From contig OY253690.1 of the NCBI GenBank assembly GCA_958009085.1, forward strand, positions 62,001 to 126,000: DNA of 64,000 bases. Reading direction: 5' to 3'. The translations under genes were made by a program, and so were the position numbers. The notes beneath the pieces are model-generated. The model saw only the letters and a list, made by a program, of their open reading frames with translations. It was not told the origin of the DNA and ran no database searches. Origin of the DNA: Protoeuglena noctilucae (taxonomy: Eukaryota). Of this stretch, positions 7,232 to 47,646 are shown one piece after another; position 1 is the first letter of the stretch; every line of letters begins with the position of its first letter.

Positions 7232-10200
7232 ATGGCAAGCCAAACGGGCGGGCTGGTGAGCCCGGTCCTGAGGAACATGGTGATTGACGAGAGCGATTTG
7301 GAGTTTAAAGAGTCTCTGGGGACGGGCGGGCAGGGCGAGGTGTTCCGGGGGCGTTGGGTGTCGCGCGGGCGCGAGGTGGCGATCAAGCGGCTGGACGCGG
7401 ACATGAGCGGGGTGGCGAGGGGCTCGATCGCAGCGGTGCTGGATCGGGGGGTCAAGGAGCTGCAGCGGATGGCGGCAGCAGCGACGGGCAGCAACCGCGT
7501 GTGCCCGTGAGCAGCGGAACAGCTGCGAGCACTGGCAGGGCTTGCAAGCATGGCCATCTACCCTGCGCCTCGATGCCAGCGGGCGAAGGCCACTGCGGAC
7601 ACGTGACGACCCCGTGCTCAAACGCTGCTCCTCCTCCCTCGCATCCAGGCTGTTGGGCTTTATGATCAAGGACGCGCGGCTGCACATCGTGATGCCGTTA
7701 TACGAGCGGGGGTCGCTGGCGCAGCGCATCGCTGAGCAGGGGCCATTCCCGCCAAGCAAAGTGGTGGACGTGGCGATCCAGCTGCTGGAGGGTCTGCGGG
7801 ATCTGCATGACCTGGGCATCGTTCACCGGGACATTAAGCCAGCCAACGTGCTGGTCGATGACCGCGGCAACCTGCTGCTGGCCGACTTCGGCCTGGCGAC
7901 GGTGGCGGAGGGCACCATGGGGGTGTCGGTGAGGATGGGGCCGGCGTGCGTCACCATAGCATAGTAGTAGGGGACGCGAGGTGCTGCAGTGGCTGGTGAT
8001 GCCTGGTGCGGCTACCACTTGTGACATCCTGAGCTTGTTACCGGCTCCGCCATGACCCCGCAGCTCAGGTCTCGCGCTACGGAGAGGCAGGCTGCAATGG
8101 GCACGGCGCAGTACATGGCCCCCGAGCAGTGGAACACGGAGCTGGGCCCGCACACCGCGGCATCGGACGCGTACGCGCTGGCAGCAACGTTGTGCCACGT
8201 CGCGTCGGGTAAGCAGCCTTATGGCAACAAGCAGATGATGCAGATCATGTTTGACGTGGCGCATGAGCGCTTCCCCGTGGTGCCCGCGTCGGTGCCGGAG
8301 CCGCTGCAGTCGGCGCTGAAGGGGGCGCTGAGGAAGGAACAGAGAGCCCGGACGACCGTTGCGGAGATGCTGAGAGCGGCCAAGGAATCCACGTGAGAGG
8401 CCGACATTCGCCGCTCGCGACTGCTTCACAGACGCCGCTGCTGTGCTGGCAGTCCATCGCATCCTTTGCGGTGCCCATCTGCCAGAGCGACGAACGAATT
8501 AGACGCCGTTTACTCGCCTCGCCCAGGAGCGTGGACTGCCACGTTTGCACGGAGAGAGTCCCGGTCCAGCTGACGGTGGCGTGCAACCAGGGTACGCACC
8601 CGGTGTGCGCCGACTGCCTGGGGCTCATGGTCAGCACGCTGGCCCAGAGCTGCATGTTGCTGGATGCGAGTGGGGACGTGAAGTGCCGGGGCTGCACGGG
8701 CCAGGCGTGCGAGGGGGTGCTGAAGGCTGGAGAGGTGGCGACGGCGCTGCAGGAGAACCGAGCGCAGCAGCAGCACTTCTTAAATGCGAGCCGGCGGCAC
8801 GCAGCGGAGGCGGAGCGAGCGTTGAGGGCGAGAGAGGTCGAGGAGCTGCGGGGGCGCATCCTGGAGCTGGATGCGCGGGGCGGGGCAGAGGCGGTGGATG
8901 CGCACCGCAAGCTGGTGGAGGAGGAGCTGAACGTGATGCGGTGCCCCAGGTGCCGGCGGGCGGCGGAGATGGTGGACTTCACGGCGTGCATGGCGCTGCT
9001 GTGGCCGAAGAGGGAGGGCGGGTGCGGGGCGGCCATCTGCGCGTGGTGCCTGGCGGACTGCGGGGAGGACGCGCACCGCCACGTGGCCAACTGCGCCTGC
9101 AACCCGCGCAAGCCGAGCGTAGGGGGCACGGAGGCCGACTTCCGCAAGCACGAGGCGGCGGAGCAGCGGAGGCGGGCGCTGGCGTACCTGGCACACAAGG
9201 TCCCGGCTGGGCTGCGGAGGGCGGTGTGGGACGCAGTGAAGGGGCTGCCGGCGATCCGAGAGGTGGGGCTGCAGTGGGCGGACGTGGATGGGGAGTCGGC
9301 GAGCACTGGGAATGGGGAGGCCGGCGGCGCTGGGAATGGGGAGGCAGCGAGTTCTGGTGCCTTGGAGCCGCGCCCTGGCAGTGTGGAGGTTTCGACAGAG
9401 GCGCAGCTAGTGGCGGCGATGGGGAGGGGCGGGGCGGTGGAGCTGGGCGGGAGGACTGTGTGGCTGACGGCGGAGGCGGCGGTGACGAGGGCAGACGGCG
9501 CAGTGACGATCCGCGAGGGGACGCTGCGTGTGGCGAGTGCGGGTCTGGCGGAGGGGTACGCGCTTGGAGTTCGGAACGGGGGAGAGCTGCGGCTGGAGGG
9601 GGTGCGGGTGGTGGGGACCGGAGTGCAGTGCGAGGGCGGCGGGAAGGTCGTGCTCACAAACGTGCACGTGATAGACGCGCCGCTCTCGGGGGTGCGGGTG
9701 GAGGGCATCGGAAGCAAGGTGGAGTTGGAAGGGGGCCGCATTGAGGGGCCCCAGGGCGGCTGCGGCGTGATGTGCGTGGAGGGAGGCAGGGCCAAGTCGT
9801 CGGGGGTGGAGATCGTCGACTGCAGGGACAGTGGGGTCTGCGTCAGTGGCAAGGGCAGCGCGGCCATCGTGCGCGGCGGGCGGATCAAGGGTGCCAAAGA
9901 GCAGCACGGGGTGGCCTGCTACAGCAGCGGGTGCGCAAAGGTGCGGGACGTCGACATCGCCGGCTGCAAAGGGTACGGCACCTACTGCGATGGCGGCAAC
10001 CTGTCCCACCGGAGATGCAACGTGTCTGGGTGTGAGGCCGGGTCCCACGACTCAAGGAACACAGCGAAGCCAGAGCCAGTGGCCCGGGCAGGCACAGGCA
10101 CGGAGACGGGTGCGGGCGCAGCCCCTTCTGCAAGGCCAGAGCTCGCCCCGGCTACACAGCCCAAGCCAGCCCCCGCTGCGCAGCCCAAGCCGACGTCCGC

Positions 10201-10822
10201 GGCACAGCCTAAGCCAAGGTCCGCTGCACCGCCCCAGCCTGTGCCTGTCACACCGCCAAAGCCGGCGCCTGTCGCAGCTCCGGCAGACCTGGCATCCAGG
10301 CTGGGCATGGGCTCAAATGCCAACCCCGCGCCTGAGTTGAATCCGCTGGCGCGCTTAACTGAATTGGCACAGGAGCTGTCGAGGGGCGCCGGCTCCACTC
10401 CAGACCGGCAGCGAGGGCGGGGCGCGGTTGTGGGCGATCACGTGACAGAGACGGAAGAGTCGATAGCCGTGGCGGGGATGGGGGTAATAGCAAGAGCAAC
10501 AGCATTTGCAGGAGTGGGAGGGATGACTGGGATGGGGGGGGGAATGCAGGGCGCCTTCGCTTTCAGCTCGACTGTGGTCGGGCAGCATGGGGCGGGGTCA
10601 GCCGTGAGCATGGAGGTCAGGCATGTGTCAGGCGTGGCAGGTCAGACGGCGGCGGGTGCGCGCATGATTCACATGAGCAGCTCCAGCTCTAGCGGTGGTA
10701 GCCAAGGGATGTCGGTCAGGGTGACCACAACGGTGACCAACCGGGTCAACGGGTCTTCGCGGGTGCAAGTGTCGAGCGGCACGGGCACGCCGGGAGGGGG
10801 CGTGCGCATCGAGGAGATGTGA
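7232..10822 (+). CDS. Ser/Thr protein kinase fused to a RING finger, an RBR RING2(Rcat)-like domain, a right-handed beta-helix and a low-complexity tail
   Basis: Exons 7232-7506, 7649-7928, 8064-8392 and 8527-10822 join in frame with GT-AG introns. Kinase motifs GTGGQG, VAIK, HRDIKPAN, DFG, YMAPE. Zinc motifs CHVC..C..HPVCADC..C..C and CPRC..DFTACMAL..CGAAICAWCL..DAHRHVANC. G-V-x-C/V beta-helix coils follow. Confidence 0.85.
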
Positions 10823-11690
10823 GTGAGGGCAGGTCGGCGGGAGGATGGGCAATCAAGACGCTAGTGGGCGGGCCAGTGCAGTAGGTCGGGCTCCTGGGTG
10901 GTGCTGGTGTGCGGTGGGCAGGCTGTGTGTGTGGGGGTGGCCCGGTCTGCAAGGTCCGGAGGGTCTAGTGCAGTGAGCATAGATTGATGCTTTCAGCGAC
11001 ATGCCATGAGCAACGCATGCCGCCTTTTAAGAAATCGGCGCAGCTAGCTATAGGTGCGGGTCAGGACATGCACTGTGACGGGACAGACGCCGGGAGTGCG
11101 CAACATCACACGTCTAGCCCCGCTGCGACGCTGCCAGGCGCGGGGTGTCCCTCTGTTCCCTCTGCAGCGCGGTTGACGGGGAGAGCATGCGTGCTGGAGA
11201 AGCTGGCTCCGCCTGACGTGTGAAACGCTCCATCACGATCGCGAAGTCGCATGTAAAGTGCACGTGCGACGTGGCCGACTTGCGGGCCGGCCCGCGCGAC
11301 CATCGGTGCAAGCGCCAGCGCAGGCAGGCACAGCACGCAAGCAGGGTCGCCCCCACGCCGGCGATCGCGGCTTTCGAAGGAGGAGCCCGGGACCAGAGCG
11401 GGCCACTTCGCGCCGACAGCCGAGCAAGTGCGAGCGCGAGCTTTGCACCGCGAGCGTGCGATCGGAGAGCGAGGGGCTGACTAGAACTCGCGAGGCGGTC
11501 ACATCAGGTCCAGTGGGCTTCTGCGCCGCGTGCGAGGCCGGTCTCTGCAGCAGGTGAGCAGAGAGATGGTTGAGGGAAAGGGCACTGCGGGCGTTGGGGC
11601 TTCAGGCGCGGCGCCTGCGGCTGCTAAAGGGAACGCGCCCTTGGGCAGGGTGGACGGCGCGCGGGGATCGTGTCCGCAGGTCGGCGCGCG

Positions 11691-13364
11691 ATGGCGGGCG
11701 GACATAAGGTCAAGCGGTCGTCGGCGACCAAGAGCACGGCTCCGCAAGTCGGTGAGGCGCGAGGGAAGGCTTTTTGTTGCTCATGCAGCAACTGCCCCGT
11801 TGCCGACGTTCAGCGCGGTCCGGTGGCGCGCGCAGGGTGGGACGACTTGACCGGGGAGCTGCATCGCGAGATCCTGCGGCTGGTGCCCCTGCGCGACGCG
11901 TCGGCGGCGCGGCGGGTGTCGCGGGAGATGCACAACGAGGTGGACGAGGTGTGGAGGCCGTGGGGCATCCGGGCCACGGCGGAGGACAGGCGGGACGACA
12001 TTCCCAAACGCCTCGTTTCTTTGCTGCTCAATTGCGAGCTTAACTGGGGTCCGCTGGCGGTGTGGGCGTTCGTGGGGTCGCACGCACACCACCTGGCGAG
12101 CCTGGGGCTGTGGTGGCTGGCAGGGCTGGCGGCGGATGCGCGGGACCTCCATGGCATGTCGTGGCATGCCGCAAGCTACTGGTTTCCGGACCAGTCCCCG
12201 CTGATGGTGGCAGTGCAAGCGCGGCGGCCGGTGGGGCGCGGGCAAGACGGGGAGGTGGAGTGGGCGTATGCGCTGGGGGACGAGGAGGTGGCGCGGGCGG
12301 TGCGGGTGGCGGTGGCGATGAGGGCGGACGTCAACCGGCGGCTGCGTGGAGCATGGCCGCTGATGACGTACTGCGCCGTGCGGGGTTGCTTGGGGGCGGT
12401 CAAGGCGCGCATATCAGCGGGGGCGGAGGTGGACGTACCTGATTTTAATTCGGGCTGGAAGACGGCGCTGGTGCATGCAGCAAGTGAGGGTCACGAGGCG
12501 GTGGTGGATGCACTGCTGGAGGCGGGGGCGTCTGCTAAGGTCGGGCCTGGTGGCGTGGATCACACCCTAGCAGCGGTGTGCCAGGGTCATCCGACGCCGG
12601 GCATCGTGAGACGGCTGGCAGAGGCGGGGGCGGATGTCAACTTTTGTGAATGGCCAGGGGGGACGCCCCTCATCACTGCCGCGTGTGGTGGCAATGTGGC
12701 GGTGATGGCGGTGCTGGTGGAGCTGGGGGCCGATGTGGCTAGTACTGACGGACACGGAGTAGTGAACCCGTCCGGTAGACCGCCGCCGCCGCTGCCGTCG
12801 CGGACTGCGATGCATGTGGCGGAGACCGGGGAGGTGGTGCGGTGGCTGGCGGCGCGTGGGGTGAGCGTGCAGGGCGACGGTCGCGGGGATTCCCCGCTTT
12901 GCTGGGCTTGTGATCAACGTCGGGTAGATGCCATCCGCGCCCTGATCGAGTTGGGTGCGGATGTGAGTTACAGGGACGCTCAATATGGTAGGACGCCTCT
13001 CTATCGTGCGGTAGGCTTCTGTGGCGAGCAAGAGGCCGCGGTGGAGATGACGCAGCTGCTGCTGGAGGCGGGGGCGGACGCCAACGCTGCTAACGAGATA
13101 GGCACGACGCCCCTGCACTGGGTCATGCACGCCGCGTGCGTGGACCTGCTTGTAGACGCTGGGGCGGACCTGGAGGCGCGGGACAGGGAGGGCATGACGC
13201 TAATCTACGCAGCTGCAGCAGAGGCTATCGACGTTAGAGCCGGGGTCGTGCTGCGGATGGCCCACCGCGGCGCCGATCTGGTGAACACGGGCGGGGAGCC
13301 GGGGCGGGTGATGCGCAAGGTGGAGGAGCTGCGGGCCAAGCGCAGCCGTAGCCAGGCCGGCTGA
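11691..13364 (+). CDS. F-box-like domain plus ankyrin-repeat protein
   Basis: WDDLTGELHREILRLVPLRDASAARRVSREM resembles an F-box. Multiple ankyrin repeats (TALVHAASEGHEAVVDALLEAGA, GTPLITAACGGNVAVMAVLVELGADV, TTPLH..CVDLLVDAGADLEARD). Exact 5' structure is uncertain. Confidence 0.8.
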   Translation: MAGGHKVKRSSATKSTAPQVGEARGKAFCCSCSNCPVADVQRGPVARAGWDDLTGELHREILRLVPLRDASAARRVSREMHNEVDEVWRPWGIRATAEDRRDDIPKRLVSLLLNCELNWGPLAVWAFVGSHAHHLASLGLWWLAGLAADARDLHGMSWHAASYWFPDQSPLMVAVQARRPVGRGQDGEVEWAYALGDEEVARAVRVAVAMRADVNRRLRGAWPLMTYCAVRGCLGAVKARISAGAEVDVPDFNSGWKTALVHAASEGHEAVVDALLEAGASAKVGPGGVDHTLAAVCQGHPTPGIVRRLAEAGADVNFCEWPGGTPLITAACGGNVAVMAVLVELGADVASTDGHGVVNPSGRPPPPLPSRTAMHVAETGEVVRWLAARGVSVQGDGRGDSPLCWACDQRRVDAIRALIELGADVSYRDAQYGRTPLYRAVGFCGEQEAAVEMTQLLLEAGADANAANEIGTTPLHWVMHAACVDLLVDAGADLEARDREGMTLIYAAAAEAIDVRAGVVLRMAHRGADLVNTGGEPGRVMRKVEELRAKRSRSQAG

Positions 13365-40625: not shown

Positions 40626-43080
40626 ATGAATCCTGCAGCGCGTGCTCTGTGGTCTGCCGTCGCGGCTTTCGCCTTCGCGTCCCTCGCACAAGGGTAGGAC
40701 GCTGCACAGGGCAGCAATTCACATACAGATACCGTGCTGCGCTGTACTGCGCCTCTCTAATGTACTCCGGATGCCTTAGAGTGAGTGCCACATATGTTGG
40801 AGTGACTGCCGCACACGCAGAGAGTACGCGCCATGCGGCAGGGGAGAGACCTTCGTCACTGTGACAATCTTCCTCCCCAGCGGCGATGCCGTCGACTACG
40901 TCGTCAACGTGGGCCCCATGCCCGATGTGTCGTTCAAATCCTTCCTGCGAACGGCAGGGATCGATCCCAAGGACGCGGCGGCCGTCTCCCACGTCCGCTC
41001 GCAGGTCGTGCAGGTGAGTCCCATCTCGCGTCATGTGAACGTGTGATACACATTCATGACAACAACACTCCTCGATATGCCTTGCCTCTTTCAATTTACC
41101 CCCGGATTTGTCATTAAGGATTTCTATAAGGTGGAGACGGGCCAGCCTACCGCTCCCGGTCCTCCCCAGGCGTTCCAGGACCGCCTCCTCCCCGAAACGT
41201 CGCTCTGGCACGCCACGCCAGAGGGGCCCCTGTACGTCATGACCACGCACGGGGACGACGTGAGGGGCGTCATACGGCACTGCGTGTCCACCCAGGTGAC
41301 TTGGGTGCCCATGTGCATGACCAGCCTGCTCCCTCGCGACACCACACTCACCCACAAGCCCCCTCGCACCTTCCGCCACCCTCCTTACACCTCTTTCACC
41401 CACGAACCCCTCGCGCCATACGCCACCCTCCTTACACGACTTTCACCCATGCACACTCGCACCATCCGCCACCCTCCTTGCACCACCTTCACCCATCACC
41501 CCTCGTGCTATTACGCCAGCCCCGCCCCTCGCTCCATGCCACTCCCAGGCGAGGGAGGGCGAGGACTTGACTGGAGCTGCGGTGGCGCTGGAGGGTTTGG
41601 CGGGGAAGCTGGGCCTCCTGCCCTTTTGGAGCGAAGTGGACGTGCCTGGGGAGGGCTGGACGTGGGTGGAGGCGTTCCCGTGGGAAAGCCAGCAAGCCGC
41701 CCTGCGCCGTCACATGGGCGATGACGAAACAGGCGAGGTTGCAAGCGGCGATGTGGTGGCACGGAGTGTGGCTCTTTGGCGTGAAGGGCCCTGCCTCGTC
41801 ATTCATATGCATACATAGGGTTCTTACCACTGAATCAAGTGGAACCATAGCTGCTTTCTGGTCATGGACAGTTGTCATTTGTCGTACCCACGCTGCCATC
41901 CGCAGAGCCCCTGGCGTCGGCATCCGCCCCCGCCTCACCCCCGCAAGCGCCCCCGAGCGGGTTCGAGGCCACGCCCGTATTCGCCGTGTCGCGCGGCGTG
42001 ACCATCTACGGCGGCCCATCTACACCAGCTACGCCACCCCCGGCGCCCACCACCCCCGATGATCATGAGTCGGGAACCAATAACAGCGACGACGGCACTG
42101 ACAGCAGTTCCCCGCAAAACGCATCGGGCGCGGCCCCCCCGGTCCCCACAAGCACCGCACCCGCCGCCCCTGCCGTGCCACGCTACAGCTTGGGCCTCGT
42201 CCTCACGGTAGCGGGAGAGGAGTTCTGGTTCTGCGGGTCCCATTACTACCACGTCGTCGAGTGCCTCCTGTCCTCCCTCGCATGGCTGCACGAGTACCAC
42301 TTAGGCCCCTTGGCCCTAGAGGCCGTCGTGATATCCACCGACAAGTACCAGCCACGGCTACACGACCCCCTCGTCCAAGCCCTCTTCCCCAGCGCCGCCA
42401 TTCTCACGTCCGGGCCCGTCGCGTTTGATGTCGCGCTCGTGGCGCGGTGGAGCGCCCGGGGGGCCCCCCGAACCCCGCACGGGACCCCGCCGGGGTCGTG
42501 CGACGTCGTCCACAACGCCCTGCACCAGTCCCTCCTCCCGGCCACCAAATGGTGCCCGCGGTTCCGTGAGCTCATCTTTGCGTCCGTGGGCGCCTCGCTC
42601 CGGCCCCGGCCCTCCCGCCGCGCCGACGTGGTAGTCGCTTACGCCACCCGCACCGACAGCCTCCGGGAGCTAAGCGCAGAGGCGATTGTGGCCCTCTCCG
42701 CCCGCCTCCGCGAGATCCACGGCGTCCAGTTTGCCCTCGTGGACTTCGGCGGCATGACGCTGGCCGAGCAGGTCCGGCTGGCGTCGGCCGTAGACGTGCT
42801 CATGGGCGTGCACGGCAACGCCATGACCAACCTTGTGTGGCTGCCCGACCACGGGGCTGCGATCGAGTTCTTCGGTCATTGGCATCACTACTACTTCCAG
42901 ACGCTCGCGGAGGCCTGCGGGAGGAGCTACGTGGGGCTGCAAGAGGGCGACCCTCGGCCGTACCGACGGGGCACGCGACGTGCTCCGGACCACGGCACGC
43001 CCTTCTTCGGGCCGTCCTACGTCGACTGGGAGGCACTCGACCGCGAGATGAGCTTTCTGCTCGACGCCATGCTCACGTGA
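40626..43080 (+). CDS. Glycosyltransferase family 61-like protein with signal peptide (paralog A)
   Basis: MNPAARALWSAVAAFAFASLAQG; HYYHVVEC; DFGGMTLAEQVRLASAVDVLMGVHGNAMTNLVWLP..AIEFF. Confidence 0.85.
41370..41495. repeat. Three intronic copies of CGCCACCCTCCTT..TTCACCCA, period about 45-50 bp
   Basis: Read directly. Confidence 0.75.
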
Positions 43081-43375: not shown

Positions 43376-46300
43376 TCAGCAGTTGTGTTGCAATCCCATG
43401 CCGCACTCTATCTCGGTGCACCTGCTGTGCGAGAGTGTGCTGTCCGCGTCAGAGGCGCGAAGACCAAAATAGTGGCAGTTTTCAATGGCCACGTCCAACA
43501 CCGTTGCGTGTCCACCCCCTTGGCAGTACACGCCATCGCCTTTGCACCCCGTAATGCGGCCCCCCTTCACGACCACCTTAGTGTTCGGGCCAAAGCATGC
43601 CACGCCACACGCCTCGCAGTTGGCAATCTCCACGCCCCGCAACTCCGCCTGGCCACCGTCCTTGCGTCCCACCCCATGAAGGTCCTTAGTACCCGCAATG
43701 CGCCCCCCCTGCACAACCACCTTGCTGCCCTTTCCCGCGCTACCAATCCCAGCCACACAGCAGTCGGCTATTTCCATGTCCCGCACATCCACCTGCCCAC
43801 CATCTCCGCACCACACCCCAACGTTCTCCTTGCATCTCAAAATGCCCCCCCCTCGCACGACTACCTTGCTGCCCTTGCCGCGGCAGTGCACGCCAGACAC
43901 CTTGCAGTCGGCAATTGCCACACCCTGCACATTTGCCTGCCCACCATTTTCGCATCGCACCCCAACATGCTCCTTGGATCTCAAAATGCGCCCCCCCTGC
44001 ATGACTACCTTGCTACCCTTGCCGTTGCAGTGCACGCCAGACAGCTCGCAGTCGGCGATCTCCACATCCTGCACCTCCACCCGTGAGCCGTCTTCGCATC
44101 TGACTCCGTCATTCCCAGCACCCGTGATGCGCCCACCCTTTTCAAGCAATTTGGTGCTCTTTCCAAAGCTGTGCACGCCAGACTTGCAAGACTCAGTGAC
44201 GTCAGTGTCCCGCACCTCCACCTGTCCACCCAAATAGCACGCCACCCCATGCCCCGTTTGAGACCCACTAATGCGGCACCCCTGCAATGCCACTGTGCTG
44301 CCCGCTCTGCACGCGATAACGCCACACATACGGCAGTCGGCAATCCTGACGTTCTGCGCGTCAACCTGCCCACTATGACTGCAGTTCAGTCCATGGGCAG
44401 TCTTGGAACCCGTAATCCGGCCCCCCTGCATGACCACCTTGCCCTTCTTCCCGCACAGTACCCCCGACTCCGGGCTATCCACCACCTCTACGTCCACCAG
44501 ACTGACCCTCCCGCCATCAATGCAAAGGATCCCTGTTCCCACCACCCTCACTCCCTCCATCCGCAGCCGTCCCTTTCCCCGACAACACAGCGCGTACCCG
44601 TCACCCAGCACCGCAACCTCCACCCGCACCGTCCCGTTCCGCACCGTCGCCACCGTTTCCTCAAAGCCCACCTTTATCGCGCGCGTCAGCACCACCTCCT
44701 GGCCCCCCAGGTCCACCACGCCACCCCTCTCCACCGCCTGCGCCACCTCTTCCCCCGTCCACACATGTTGCGACTCGCTCTCCACAGATCGCCCCGCTGA
44801 CTCCGAGGCCCCTGCCGATTCCCCCGCATCCCCCGACCCCACCGCTGCAGGCCGCCTATCCCCCCTCGCCGCCCCCTCCGCCGCCCGCACCCTCGCCTCG
44901 ACCTCCGCCCACTCCAGCCCCGCGCCCCGCACCTCCGCCACCGCCTCCCACGCCGCCCATCGTTGCAGCTCGCTCGGCTGCGCCAGCACGCACGTCAGCG
45001 CGACCCACCACTCCTCCGCCCCTCCTTGTGCCACGGTCACAGCCGCCAGGCCCCTCGCGACCCTCTCCACGCCTCCGCACCGCTCCCTGCGCACAGCGAC
45101 ACGGCTGCAGTGTGACCCACCAGCGCCTGACCGCACCCACACGTGCAGCCCGCCAGTACTTGCATCTCGGTTTACCCCCCCCATGCCCCCACCGGTACCC
45201 CCCTCCCCGCCCCTCACCTGCTCTCCCTCGCCGCCCGCAGCATCTGCGCCACGCTCGTGCGCTCCCCCGGCCGCCCCACCAGCGCCCCCCGCACCGCCGA
45301 CCGCAGCGGCTCCAGCATCGACTCCGGCACCTCCGGGAACCGCCCCAGCGCCACCACGTCCGCCATCACCTGCATCGCGCTCTTGCCCCCAAACAGCGCC
45401 CGCCCCGACGCTGCAAAGCACAGCGTTGCCGCCGCCGAGTATGCGTCCGACGCCGCCGTGGCCGGTCCCAGCTCCGAGTCCCACGCCTCCGGAGCCATGT
45501 ACGGCGCGCTGCCCGCCCCCGCTTGCCCCCTGCCGCCTCGGCTGACCTGCTGCGGTGTCAGCAGAGAGAACAGTCCGTCAGCCAAAGCCGCAATGCACAC
45601 CACCTCGCTGGCGCTTCCCCGCACCACTCGAACCCTGGTCTGCACCATAACACTGTGCCCGCGCCCCGCCCCCGCATGTGCTCACCGGCGCCCCCATCCT
45701 CTCCGCCACCGTCGCCAGCCCGTAGTCCGCCAGCACCACCCCGCCTCCCTCCTCCACCAGCACGTTCGCCGGCTTCACACCCCCGTGCACGATTCCCCGC
45801 TCATGCAGCGCCCGCAGCCCCTACAGCACCTGCACCGCCACCTCCGCCACCTCCTCCGCCCGCAGCCCCGCCCCCCGCTCCGCGATGCGCCGCGCCAGCG
45901 ACCCCCGCTCGTACAGCGGCATCACCACGTGCAGCTGAGCGCCCCGCACGGCGACGCCCAGCAGCCTGCGTCACGCCAAGGCAAGGACAGGTCAGCTGCC
46001 GCCCTGCCCACAGCTGCAGCGGGGCGGACGCACGCACGCCACACGCCGCCGGACGGCTGAGCGGCTCATACTGCACACTCAATCACACACTCAATCACCA
46101 CCACCACCACCGCCACTACCACCCACGGCAAGCAAGCCACCGGCAGCGCAGTCTCACGGGCACACGTGGTCGATGCCCTGGCACGCCGCCGCCATCCGCC
46201 GCAGCTCCTCCATCCCCCGCTCCAGCGGTGCCATCTCCGTCCCCCCCGCCGCCCCGCCCATGTCCGCGTCCAGCCGCTTGATTGCCACGGCACCGTCATG

Positions 46301-46447
46301 CCGCCGCCACCGGCCCCGGAACACCTCGCCCTGCGCGCCCTGCCCCAGCGACGCGCCCACCTCCAGCTCCTCCTCCGCGATCGTCCAGTCGCCCTCGCCC
46401 CGCCCCCGCGAGCCCGCCCCGGCGCCCGTCCCGCCAGCTGGGTCCAT
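43376..46447 (-). pseudogene. Disrupted paralog of the kinase-beta-helix gene (lacks RING/Rcat, longer beta-helix)
   Basis: Same three intron positions as 7232-10822. In-frame TAG at 45823-45821 where the paralog has GAG. Catalytic loop reads HGGVKPAN instead of HRDIKPAN. The beta-helix exon is still open. Confidence 0.75.
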
Positions 46448-47646
46448 CTCCGCTGCAGCCACAGCCACGGCAGCGCCCAGGATCACCCGCCGGGGCTCAT
46501 GCGCATTTCTAGACTTCTCACAATGTTCATATAAGCTGCACAATGCCCGGGCTCCGTCCGCAACCGCTGCGCCGGACAGGCACGCATGGAGATCCGGAGC
46601 GCCATGCTGCACGGCCCCGCCGCGCCTGTGGCTCGGCGCCGGCGCAGCGCTCGCGTCCGGCGCACGACATGCAATCTGTGCAGCCGTACGGCATGTCCTG
46701 GAAGCCCATATACGCCCCGGCGAGGGACCCTCGCCTCCGCAACACCTCTTAGCCAGTCCCAGGAGGGCGCGCGCGGACGCTCCGTGGCCCGCGCAGGTGC
46801 TTCAGACGCCGACAACCATCATGTATCGCAGCGCGACCCCCGCTCACCGCTCGCCCGCACCTGCGTCCGCTACTGCCGTCGCGCGCACTGGCCCTCTCTC
46901 CAGAGGCCTCGCCGCTGCCTCCGTGACGGAGTGCGCGATCGCCTGCCCAATCTTATGCGAGTTTGTCCGCGTCGATGATGCCGCTGCGGCCAACAGCGGC
47001 GCGGCTGGCCCTCTGTCACTTGTCAGACTGCTTTGCAGGCAGCCATGCCTGTCGAGGAGAGGCGAGCCCCTTGCGCGCCCCGCGGCACTGCGTTGGTCCT
47101 GACGCGAGCCAAGCGATGCGTATTCAAGTCCGCTGCGATGTTTCGGTGTGCCGAGCAGCACCTGATGCGTGCCTGTCGTGCTGTCGGTAACGTGCTGTGG
47201 CATGCGCGCTTGCAGTGCTTCAAGCGCTGGGGCGTACATACACACGGCTAGCTGTACAGGTTCACGGGTCCGAATCTTGTGACCCAACGCATACGAACAT
47301 GAAGGCCCATCGCTATCGCCCGGGTCCTGCTCAGCAGCGCCGCGCTGCTGCCCAGCTCTTGCGGCATGCATCTCCCACGCTTGCCCGTACTGCCTCCCGC
47401 CTAGCCCTGCACCCCCGCCTGCCCTACTCCTGCTAGCGCCCCTCCCCATGATCAGCCCCACCTATACGCGCTACCCCGCCAGCATGCGGTGCACTCCCAG
47501 CACCTAGGCCTGCCCCGCTGGGGGCTCTGCGTGTCTTATTGGAGCACAGGGCAGACGCGCCGGTTTTAGATACCCAGGGCCGGACGCCGCTGGTTGCTGC
47601 CTGGGACAACTACCAGCCTAGAGCACATATGTTTAGGTATGCCTGG

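What the first reader, a model, noticed from the sequence alone, without database searches (positions are those of the whole stretch)
7232..10822. Kinase + RING + Rcat-like + beta-helix fusion: candidate single-chain sensor/kinase/E3 ligase
Seen: an intact kinase, a RING-like finger, a helical linker with no obvious IBR domain, a RING2-like domain, then a beta-helix; no signal peptide or TM segment. DFTACMAL aligns with the RBR catalytic Cys motif (Parkin GGCMHM, established), but the next expected Zn ligand is Trp (TGG). Inference: a cytosolic receptor coupling ligand binding to phosphorylation and ubiquitination, possibly defence-related.
Basis: partly seen in the sequence, partly recalled or inferred. 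Interest (0 to 1): 0.7.

Follow-up and report, generated by a model that had tools for sequence, protein, structure and literature searches.

The report
Kinase fused to IBR-less RBR ligase
This algal gene joins a protein kinase to a ubiquitin-ligase module of the parkin/RNF216 type that lacks the usual middle zinc domain, followed by a beta-helix, and this copy has lost one zinc-binding cysteine of the catalytic finger.

Summary
Window 7232-10822 (+) is best read as one four-exon eukaryotic gene of 1059 codons. It encodes an intact Ser/Thr kinase, an RBR-type RING1, about 57 helical residues with no zinc ligands (no IBR), an Rcat-like zinc finger, a right-handed beta-helix and a low-complexity tail.

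A profile of the RING1-helix-Rcat module hits parkin (E 1e-7). Its second finger aligns with the Rcat domains of parkin, CUL9, HHARI and HOIP, not with their IBRs. The AlphaFold model (pLDDT 91.6) matches RNF216 RING1 (Z 8.9).

The module is a large family: 1168 cluster representatives at E<=1e-3. The kinase sits directly N-terminal of it in 16 of 57 long members and in 21 of 80 metagenome loci. I found no description of it in print.

The catalytic-position Cys is kept in 149 of 152 relatives. The canonical +2 His is Ala in 142 of 152.

This gene alone has Trp at a zinc-ligand position that is Cys in 148 and His in 3 of 152 relatives. RNA contigs show both the Trp allele and a Cys allele about 98% identical.

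E3 activity, the kinase-RING splice junction and any receptor or defence role remain untested. I rate it a new variant of a known kind.

The parts
7232..7506 (+). Exon 1: start codon, kinase N-lobe (G-loop, VAIK)
   Evidence: ATG at 7232 and donor GTGAGC at 7507. Pkinase profile positions 1-41. The G-loop is at residue 30 and VAIK at residue 49.
7649..7928 (+). Exon 2: kinase catalytic core (HRD, DFG)
   Evidence: Acceptor CAG at 7646-7648 and donor GTGAGG at 7929. Pkinase E 7.4e-22 over profile positions 64-150. The following intron, 7929-8063, is spliced out in one RNA contig of run X2 (table 5).
8064..8392 (+). Exon 3: kinase C-lobe (APE to end of domain)
   Evidence: Pkinase E 6.6e-9 over profile positions 153-259. 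Donor GTGAGA at 8393. An in-frame TGA at 8394-8396 would end the kinase frame if the intron is retained.
8393..8526 (+). Proposed intron 3 (134 nt) joining the kinase to RING1
   Evidence: GT..AG ends, a pyrimidine-rich acceptor CGCCTCGCCCAG, and a fitting phase. No listed RNA contig bridges it. An alternative acceptor at 8486-8487 is also in frame and would add 13 residues (read).
8528..8806 (+). RBR-type RING1 (residues 1-93 of exon-4 protein P0001)
   Evidence: Family profile against parkin RING1: 29.8 bits. VIA-align Z 8.9 to RNF216 residues 512-594; Z 7.1 to parkin 235-324; HOIL-1L, ARIH2 and HOIP RING1 score Z 6-6.6. The window ORF carries a precomputed PF26191 hit, which the Atlas names RING-HC_RBR_RNF216.
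8759..8929 (+). Helical linker in place of the IBR (P0001 residues 78-134)
   Evidence: AlphaFold helices at 78-117 and 119-134, pLDDT about 90. No conserved Cys or His in this stretch in alignment A1.
8930..9112 (+). Rcat-like zinc finger (P0001 residues 135-195): CPRC-x11-C-x4-W-x6-C-x4-C-x2-C-x3-C-x4-H-x-H-x3-C
   Evidence: Profile stretch 146-194 aligns with the parkin Rcat at 18.2 bits, against 4.3 bits for the IBR. The Rcat-only profile hits the CUL9 Rcat (E 1.1e-3; its IBR scores -10.2 bits), HHARI RING2, parkin Rcat and HOIP Rcat. The two top Foldseek rows are the RNF216 Rcat, but weak (E 0.29 and 0.33).
8987..8989 (+). TGC: Cys at the Rcat catalytic position (P0001 C154; residue 449 of the spliced protein)
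   Evidence: It aligns with the Cys of parkin GCMHMIC and CUL9 GCLHMTC. It is Cys in 149 of 152 relatives.
9002..9004 (+). TGG: Trp in place of a zinc-ligand Cys (P0001 position 159)
   Evidence: Relatives have Cys in 148, His in 3 and a gap in 1 of 152, and never Trp. An RNA contig of X2 covers the site without a difference. An X1 contig with 8 differences has G>C at 9004, giving TGC = Cys (tables 3 and 8).
9113..9307 (+). C-terminal helices of the module (P0001 residues 196-260)
   Evidence: Helices at 202-224, 227-237, 241-246 and 250-259. They are conserved across the family and retained in the window's paralog.
9617..10042 (+). Right-handed parallel beta-helix
   Evidence: PF13229 E 6.8e-8, 32.7 bits against a cut-off of 25.9, at P0001 residues 364-505. 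The closest relatives P0008, P0011 and P0012 carry the same domain after the module.
10088..10822 (+). Low-complexity tail (Pro-rich PKP repeats, then a Gly/Ser/Thr-rich end) and stop codon
   Evidence: Composition is A, G, S, P, V, T-rich. No Pfam family at E<=10 and no PDB relative. RNA contigs cover it.
43376..46801 (-). Paralog: kinase-like (HGG instead of HRD) + beta-helix, without RING1 or Rcat
   Evidence: tblastn: 58-61% identity over the kinase and 42-46% over the beta-helix, with no match to residues 296-520.

Best explanation
One four-exon nuclear gene of a GC-rich marine alga encodes a soluble multidomain signalling protein. Its parts, in order, are an active-looking Ser/Thr kinase, a RING1-helix-Rcat module, a right-handed beta-helix and a disordered tail.

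The RING1-helix-Rcat module is a divergent RBR-type ubiquitin ligase unit related to RNF216 and parkin, in which the IBR (BRcat) is replaced by a helical hairpin.

Inferred mechanism for the family:
- RING1 recruits a charged E2.
- Ubiquitin passes to the conserved Cys of the Rcat-like finger (P0001 C154).
- From there it passes to a target held by the accessory domain, here the beta-helix.
- The kinase fused directly upstream regulates the ligase or marks the target in cis.

In this genome's allele a zinc-ligand Cys of the Rcat finger is Trp. The ligase step is therefore probably weakened or lost here, while the kinase and the beta-helix remain intact.

Shown: domain identities, homology to RBR RING1 and Rcat, absence of an IBR, family size and architectures, and that the Trp is real. 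Inferred: thioester catalysis, the kinase-ligase coupling, the role of the beta-helix, and the effect of the Trp.
For: Gene model: GT..AG introns with fitting phases and one terminal stop. Intron 2 is spliced in an RNA contig. Exon 4 has no in-frame ATG before RING1.

Kinase: Pfam pieces tile the profile and all catalytic motifs are present.

RBR homology:
- The A1 profile hits parkin at E 1e-7, with separate stretches on RING1 (29.8 bits) and Rcat (18.2 bits), against 4.3 bits on the IBR.
- The A2 profile hits the Rcat domains of CUL9, HHARI, parkin, ARIH2 and HOIP.
- The model has pLDDT 91.6 and pTM 0.78.
- RING1 superposes on RNF216, RNF144A, parkin, HOIL-1L, ARIH2 and HOIP RING1 at Z 6-8.9.
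- The window ORF carries PF26191, RING-HC_RBR_RNF216.

Family:
- 1168 representatives at E<=1e-3.
- The catalytic-position Cys is kept in 149 of 152.
- 135 of 153 keep all eleven Cys/His positions.

Fusion to kinases: 16 of the 57 long members scanned have Pkinase ending 10-120 residues before the module. 21 of 80 metagenome loci have a kinase upstream on the same strand. P0006 is Ank + kinase + module.

Beta-helix after the module: found in the three closest long relatives.

Trp: it is unique among the 153 sequences, is present in RNA of run X2, and is Cys in a variant contig of X1.
Against: - No RNA contig bridges exon 3 to exon 4, so the fusion rests on splice logic and on relatives.
- Run X1 also holds unspliced contigs over introns 1 and 2.
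- Structural matches of the isolated Rcat-like domain are weak: Foldseek E 0.29-0.33 to RNF216, and VIA-align wide best Z 5.0 to an unrelated polymerase, with parkin at 4.3 and RNF216 at 4.0. The same profile also hits the eS27 zinc ribbon at E 5.6e-4.
- The His two residues after the catalytic Cys of canonical RBRs is absent: Ala in 142 of 152, His in none.
- Eleven conserved Cys/His are three more than two zinc sites need. C154 could therefore be a structural ligand of a third site rather than a nucleophile.
- Close relatives show decay of the module. P0010 lacks the Rcat core and the window's own paralog lacks RING1 and Rcat.
- No activity of any kind was measured.
Confidence: 0.55

Rival explanations
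1. Pseudo-ligase. The module in this gene is a decayed remnant that serves only as a scaffold or linker between the kinase and the beta-helix. The working parts of the protein would then be the kinase and the beta-helix.
For: Trp replaces a zinc ligand that is Cys or His in 151 of 152 relatives. The loop before the catalytic-position Cys is 11 residues instead of the usual 9 (84 of 101 members have 9). The variant RNA contig differs by 4 non-synonymous against 2 synonymous changes within 8947-9004 (read). The paralog in the same window has lost RING1 and Rcat altogether. P0010 lacks the Rcat core.
Against: All eight RING1 ligands and the other ten Rcat Cys/His positions are intact. The region still models with pLDDT 77-88. 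The gene is transcribed. A near-identical allele keeps the Cys.
Confidence: 0.35
2. The family is not a thioester-forming ligase. The conserved Cys at the Rcat position would be a structural ligand of a third zinc site, and the module would act as a plain RING-type E3 or as a zinc-stabilised interaction module.
For: There are eleven near-invariant Cys/His positions where two zinc sites need eight. There is no His at +2. Fold matches of the isolated domain are weak, and a generic zinc ribbon (eS27) scores as well as the Rcat domains.
Against: The G-C-x-x-[LM]-x-C core and all spacings (C-x2-C-x9-C-x4-C-x2-4-C-x4-C-x2-C) match Rcat domains and align to them in every RBR hit, never to the IBR. 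C178 is the least conserved of the eleven positions, with 6 of 152 non-ligand residues. H183 never swaps to Cys, whereas H185 and C159 show ligand-type His/Cys swaps. This fits two zinc sites plus a free Cys and His.
Confidence: 0.25
3. There are two genes: a kinase gene ending at the TGA at 8394-8396, and a separate RING/beta-helix gene.
For: No listed RNA contig bridges 8393-8526. The public protein collection holds only the single-exon ORF call of 809 aa.
Against: Only 134 nt separate the two parts. The ends are GT..AG with the right phase. There is no in-frame ATG before RING1 in exon 4. The kinase lies directly N-terminal of the module in 16 of 57 relatives and 21 of 80 loci.
Confidence: 0.1

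Closest known systems
RNF216 (TRIAD3) and other RBR E3 ligases (parkin, HHARI/ARIH1, ARIH2, CUL9, HOIP, HOIL-1)
   Same: The RING1 has the RBR sequence and fold: Z 8.9 to RNF216, a precomputed PF26191 hit, and 29.8 bits to parkin RING1. The second finger has Rcat spacing and a Cys at the catalytic position, and aligns to the Rcat domains of parkin, CUL9, HHARI and HOIP. One RNF216 entry matched is a phosphorylated form (title).
   Different: There is no IBR/BRcat; a helical hairpin of about 57 residues stands in its place. Ala replaces the His two residues after the catalytic Cys. There is an extra conserved D-C-G-x-D-A-H-x-H motif. The module is fused to a kinase in cis. This gene lacks one zinc ligand.
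Arabidopsis KEG (RING E3 + kinase + ankyrin + HERC2-like repeats) and MAP3K1 (kinase with a RING/PHD-like E3 domain). Both are recalled, not from a call.
   Same: They are single polypeptides that combine a protein kinase with a ubiquitin-ligase finger and a repeat domain for partner binding. P0006, a relative, also has ankyrin repeats.
   Different: As recalled, KEG and MAP3K1 carry simple RING-type fingers without an Rcat. Here the ligase part is RBR-derived and lies C-terminal of the kinase. No homology beyond the generic kinase and RING folds was tested.
FBXO11-type E3 substrate receptors with CASH/PbH1 beta-helix repeats (recalled, not from a call)
   Same: A right-handed beta-helix attached to ubiquitin-ligase machinery, where it is thought to bind the target.
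   Different: FBXO11 is an F-box adaptor of an SCF complex with no kinase or Rcat. A PDB sequence search with this beta-helix found no relative.

Membership tests
RBR (RING-between-RING) E3 ligases | RBR-type RING1 (C3HC4 cross-brace with a C-terminal helix) | tested here: met
   The profile aligns with parkin RING1 at 29.8 bits. VIA-align Z 8.9, rmsd 2.8 A and 82 residues to RNF216 RING1, and Z 6-7.5 to five other RBR RING1 domains. Precomputed PF26191, RING-HC_RBR_RNF216. All eight ligands are present.
RBR (RING-between-RING) E3 ligases | IBR/BRcat zinc domain between RING1 and Rcat | tested here: not met
   No conserved Cys or His between RING1 and CPRC in 31 sequences. The model shows helices at 78-117 and 119-134.
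RBR (RING-between-RING) E3 ligases | Rcat finger with a Cys at the catalytic position | tested here: met
   It aligns with the Rcat domains of parkin (18.2 bits), CUL9 (22.2 bits), HHARI, ARIH2 and HOIP, and the Cys aligns with their catalytic-motif Cys. It is Cys in 149 of 152 relatives and in this gene.
RBR (RING-between-RING) E3 ligases | Complete set of Rcat zinc ligands | tested here: not met
   This gene has Trp (TGG at 9002-9004) where 148 relatives have Cys and 3 have His, of 152. The family as a whole meets this feature.
RBR (RING-between-RING) E3 ligases | His two residues after the catalytic Cys (C-x-H; its role is recalled from parkin, HHARI and HOIP work) | tested here: not met
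   Ala in this gene and in 142 of 152 relatives; His in none.
RBR (RING-between-RING) E3 ligases | Ubiquitin thioester on the Rcat Cys and E2-dependent ligase activity | not testable with these tools
   This needs biochemistry.
Eukaryotic protein kinases (Pfam PF00069) | Full kinase domain with G-loop, VAIK Lys, HRD, DFG and APE | tested here: met
   Three exon pieces tile profile positions 1-41, 64-150 and 153-259; exon 2 alone scores 78.4 bits. The motifs lie at residues 30, 49, 151, 171 and 204.
Right-handed beta-helix (Pfam PF13229) | Score above the Pfam gathering cut-off | tested here: met
   32.7 bits against 25.9, E 6.8e-8, at P0001 residues 364-505.

The most novel reading that the evidence does not exclude
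The RING1-helix-Rcat module is a distinct, widespread class of minimal RBR ligase that works without an IBR. Its catalytic centre is rebuilt: the free Cys is paired with the invariant His and Asp of the D-A-H-x-H motif instead of the canonical +2 His. In a large share of its members it is hard-wired to an upstream kinase, making a kinase-gated transthiolating E3 on a single chain. The close relatives that carry a beta-helix would be sensors that read a ligand through that helix.
Probability: 0.3. Interest if true: 0.75.

Novelty: new variant of a known kind. Interest (0 to 1): 0.6.

Why it matters
RBR ligases are defined by three zinc domains, and the middle one (IBR/BRcat) is considered part of the mechanism. 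A natural family of more than a thousand sequence clusters that keeps RING1 and Rcat but replaces the IBR with helices would show what the minimal RBR machine needs.

The same family drops the canonical catalytic His. It is also fused again and again to kinases and SF1 helicases. This would give a system in which phosphorylation and ubiquitination are coupled on one chain, as PINK1 and parkin do in trans.

The family is abundant in haptophyte-like protists and appears in giant-virus-like clusters. It may therefore bear on signalling in ecologically important algae.

The Trp/Cys polymorphism offers a natural on/off pair for testing.

Tried and rejected
Searches and tools that led nowhere:
- Whole-genome search: no genome is held for this window.
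- Earlier findings of this scan: none for this place.
- Pfam on the 260-residue module alone gave nothing meaningful (DAO_C, E 0.11). Only family members give weak IBR_1, IBR_2 or IBR hits: 13, 8 and 5 of 31.
- A word-index protein search found only 3 proteins, one of them the window's own ORF.
- The first metagenome scan, with the single protein, found no relative. The second, with alignment A1, gave 80 loci. None has a beta-helix like this one: 0 of 80.

RNA evidence:
- No listed contig covers 8370-8546, and none bridges intron 1 or intron 3. I do not count this for or against splicing. Eleven pieces were not shown.

Structure searches:
- Foldseek on the whole module gave no hit at E<=0.001. 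The top rows were nevertheless nearly all RBR ligases.
- Foldseek and VIA-align wide on the Rcat part were inconclusive, with a best Z of 5.0 to an unrelated chain.

Other domains:
- The beta-helix and the tail have no PDB sequence relatives.
- The kinase has no specific subfamily. GCN2, MAP2K-like, CaMK1, RIPK1 and Chk1 all score alike.

Literature:
- Four searches found no description of an IBR-less RBR or of this kinase-RBR architecture: RBR/Rcat/IBR/kinase domain/algae; 'lacks the IBR' and variants; BRcat/RING1-Rcat; RING-between-RING/haptophyte/protist.
- A fifth search, on RBR evolution/RNF216, and a search for the string PF26191 also found nothing relevant.
- Only listings and abstract starts were seen. 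No paper was read.

Ideas dropped:
- The tail reminded me of a DnaJB6-type C-terminus. This is a recollection that no search supported.
Full report
**Observation**

The stretch 7232-10822 (+) lies in GC-rich DNA (63-69%) and reads as one gene with three short introns.

- Exon 1 (7232-7506) starts at an ATG and ends at a GTGAGC donor.
- Exon 2 (7649-7928) follows a CAG acceptor and ends at GTGAGG.
- Exon 3 (8064-8392) follows GCAG and ends at GTGAGA.
- Exon 4 (8527-10822) follows a pyrimidine-rich CCCAG and runs to a TGA.

The phases fit. The joined frame is 3180 nt with one terminal stop, giving 1059 codons.

**Kinase**

Pfam finds Pkinase in three pieces that tile the profile in order. Exon 1 covers positions 1-41. 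Exon 2 covers 64-150 (E 7.4e-22, 78.4 bits). Exon 3 covers 153-259 (E 6.6e-9).

The G-loop, VAIK, HRD, DFG and APE motifs are all present. The domain looks catalytically competent. PDB relatives span many Ser/Thr kinase groups without a clear subfamily.

**RNA evidence**

Four marine metatranscriptome runs from one study hold 24-53% of the sampled words of the gene. Their contigs cover all parts of it.

- One contig of X2 skips 7929-8063, confirming intron 2.
- X1 also has unspliced contigs over introns 1 and 2.
- No listed contig bridges intron 1 or intron 3.

The kinase-RING junction is therefore not shown directly. It is supported indirectly in four ways.

- Only 134 nt with GT..AG ends and the right phase lie between the two parts.
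- Exon 4 has no in-frame ATG before the first RING ligands.
- A second possible acceptor at 8486-8487 is also in frame.
- Relatives carry the same fusion, as described below.

**The zinc module**

The first 260 residues of exon 4 found 1168 cluster representatives at E<=1e-3 in a full HMMER scan of 1.84 billion proteins. Of these, 295 are at E<=1e-10 and 5 at E<=1e-30. The module mostly sits at the C-terminus of proteins of 119-4125 residues.

An alignment of 31 members (A1) gives this consensus:

- a RING-like C-x2-C...C-x4-8-H-x2-C-x2-C...C...C;
- about 60-75 residues without conserved Cys or His;
- then L-T-L-x-C-P-R-C-x2-A-F-x-D-F-x-G-C-F-A-L-T-C-x2-4-C-x4-C-A-W-C-L-x-D-C-G-x-D-A-H-x-H-V-x2-C.

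The A1 profile hits parkin at E 1e-7. Two separate stretches match: RING1 at 29.8 bits and the Rcat at 18.2 bits. The parkin IBR scores only 4.3 bits.

A profile of the second half alone (A2, 43 sequences) hits the following:

- the CUL9 Rcat (E 1.1e-3, 22.2 bits; its IBR scores -10.2 bits);
- HHARI RING2 (1wd2, 2m9y);
- the parkin Rcat (9c5e, 2lwr);
- ARIH2;
- the HOIP Rcat.

In all these alignments the Cys of G-C-F-A-L-T-C pairs with the Cys of G-C-[MLN]-H-M-x-C. From knowledge of parkin and HHARI (recalled), that is the ubiquitin-accepting Cys. The same profile also hits the eS27 zinc ribbon (E 5.6e-4), so some of the signal is generic zinc-ribbon.

**Structure**

AlphaFold2 on A1 gives pLDDT 91.6 and pTM 0.78. 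Helices at 78-117 and 119-134 stand where an IBR would be.

Foldseek finds no hit at E<=0.001, but the top rows are nearly all RBR ligases, led by RNF216. VIA-align places residues 1-93 on RNF216 RING1 (Z 8.9, rmsd 2.8 A, 82 residues). The same residues fit RNF144A, parkin, HOIL-1L, ARIH2 and HOIP RING1 at Z 6-7.5.

The window's own ORF carries a precomputed PF26191 hit. The Atlas names that family RING-HC_RBR_RNF216.

The Rcat part folded alone gives pLDDT 91.1. Its matches are only weak:

- RNF216 Rcat is first in Foldseek at E 0.29-0.33.
- HOIP and parkin Rcat superpose over 43-47 residues at rmsd 2.3-3.7 A.
- In the wide VIA search nothing stands out: Z 5.0 to an unrelated polymerase, parkin IBR region 4.3, RNF216 4.0.

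The fold evidence for the small finger is inconclusive. The Rcat assignment rests on the profile alignments and the spacing.

**Family statistics**

I aligned the 152 relatives in hand, plus this gene, to the A2 model.

- The catalytic-position Cys is Cys in 149 of 152.
- The position two residues after it is Ala in 142 and never His.
- Eleven Cys/His positions are kept together in 135 of 153 sequences.
- His/Cys swaps occur at C159 (3 His) and H185 (3 Cys), as expected of metal ligands.
- C178 is the most variable position.
- H183 is His in 150 of 152 and never Cys.

I read this as two zinc sites plus a free Cys and a free His that could replace the missing +2 His. This is an inference. A third zinc site using C154 is not excluded.

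**The Trp**

This gene has TGG (9002-9004) at the C159 position. It is the only Trp among the 153 sequences. Its closest relatives have C-M-A-L-[TWYH]-C.

The Trp is not an assembly error. An X2 RNA contig identical to the window covers it. A second contig in X1, with 8 differences in 352 nt, has G>C at 9004, which restores Cys.

Within 8947-9004 that variant differs by 2 synonymous and 4 non-synonymous changes. I read these.

The loss of a zinc ligand probably weakens the first zinc site of the finger. From recollection, parkin RING2 ligand mutations are destabilising. The region still models at pLDDT 77-88, but that does not test metal binding.

**Architectures**

Of the 150 listed hits, 80 are 380 residues or longer. 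I scanned 57 of these with Pfam at E<=1e-5. I left out the longest ones and part of those of 380-540 residues, to stay under the size limit.

| Domain found with the module | Members (of 57) |
|---|---|
| Pkinase directly N-terminal of the module | 16 |
| SF1 helicase domains (AAA_11/AAA_12) | 8 |
| Beta-helix after the module (the closest relatives P0008, P0011, P0012) | 3 |
| Ankyrin repeats | 2 |
| DEAD helicase, UBA, LRR, CCCH, ALK/LTK glycine-rich | 1 each |
| No other family | 23 |

P0006 is ankyrin + kinase + module.

In 80 metagenome loci fetched with A1, 21 have a kinase upstream on the same strand and none has a beta-helix like this one. Some of these loci are near-duplicates.

The nearest Atlas clusters are haptophyte hypothetical proteins (score 0.95). 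One cluster is from Nucleocytoviricota.

**The rest of the protein**

The beta-helix passes the Pfam cut-off. It has no PDB sequence relative.

The tail is Pro-rich and then Gly/Ser/Thr-rich, with no family match.

A hydropathy scan shows no clear membrane segment. The maximum is 1.59, at residue 941.

**A paralog in the window**

On the minus strand at about 43376-46801 lies a paralog. It is 58-61% identical over the kinase and 42-46% over the beta-helix.

Its kinase has HGG in place of HRD, and it has no RING1 or Rcat. It keeps only the last helices of the module.

P0010, a 59% relative, lacks the Rcat core. This beta-helix-bearing branch thus shows repeated decay of the ligase part.

**Explanation and comparison**

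The best reading is a kinase fused to an RBR-derived ligase module and a beta-helix that probably holds a target or ligand.

For the family I infer the RBR route: E2 on RING1, ubiquitin to the Rcat Cys, then to the target. The cis kinase would act as regulator. By its PDB title, one RNF216 entry is a phosphorylated form. From recollection, parkin is switched on by PINK1.

It is not a canonical RBR. The IBR feature is tested and not met, the +2 His is not met, and this allele lacks a zinc ligand. It works like an RBR at most by inference.

Six literature searches found no description of an IBR-less RBR or of this architecture. I saw only listings and abstract starts.

I rate it a new variant of a known kind. 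The family is more interesting than this particular, possibly crippled, copy.

Noticed in passing
window 43376-46801 (-): A paralog of the gene. Its kinase-like exons have HGG instead of HRD, so it is probably a pseudokinase. It has a longer beta-helix (PF13229, E 1.3e-24) and no RING1 or Rcat; only the last helices of the module are kept.
   Followed up: partly
window 9004 (and 8947, 8948, 8964, 8981, 8985): An RNA contig in run X1 differs from the window at these sites. G>C at 9004 turns the Trp codon into Cys. Four of the six listed changes are non-synonymous. Whether this is an allele, a different strain or a paralog is open.
   Followed up: partly
window 11670-13364 (+): A 564-residue ORF with ankyrin repeats (Ank_2, E 1.3e-33) lies directly downstream on the same strand. 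Ankyrin repeats also accompany the module in relatives P0006, P0042 and P0100.
   Followed up: no
window 41851-43080 (+): An ORF with a Glyco_transf_61 domain (E 2.5e-10) lies next to the paralog.
   Followed up: no
proteins P0016, P0017, P0115, P0116, P0128, P0138, P0148, P0153: The same RING1-helix-Rcat module sits at the C-terminus of SF1 (AAA_11/AAA_12, Upf1-like) helicases. This is a second recurrent architecture of the family.
   Followed up: no
protein P0013 (residues 171 and 327); protein P0010: P0013 carries two tandem Rcat-like fingers. P0010, a 59% relative, has the Rcat core deleted between CP and WCL.
   Followed up: no
loci L012, L039, L053, L064, L068, L080 and others: Family members also occur on low-GC (31-42%) metagenome contigs, some on contigs of 15-24 kb. 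The Atlas lists a Nucleocytoviricota cluster with Rcat_RNF216. Giant-virus copies are therefore possible.
   Followed up: no
window 10088-10822 (+): The tail has Pro-rich PKP-type repeats, then a Gly/Ser/Thr-rich end with a mildly hydrophobic stretch at residues 941-959 (hydropathy 1.59). It has no family or PDB relative.
   Followed up: partly
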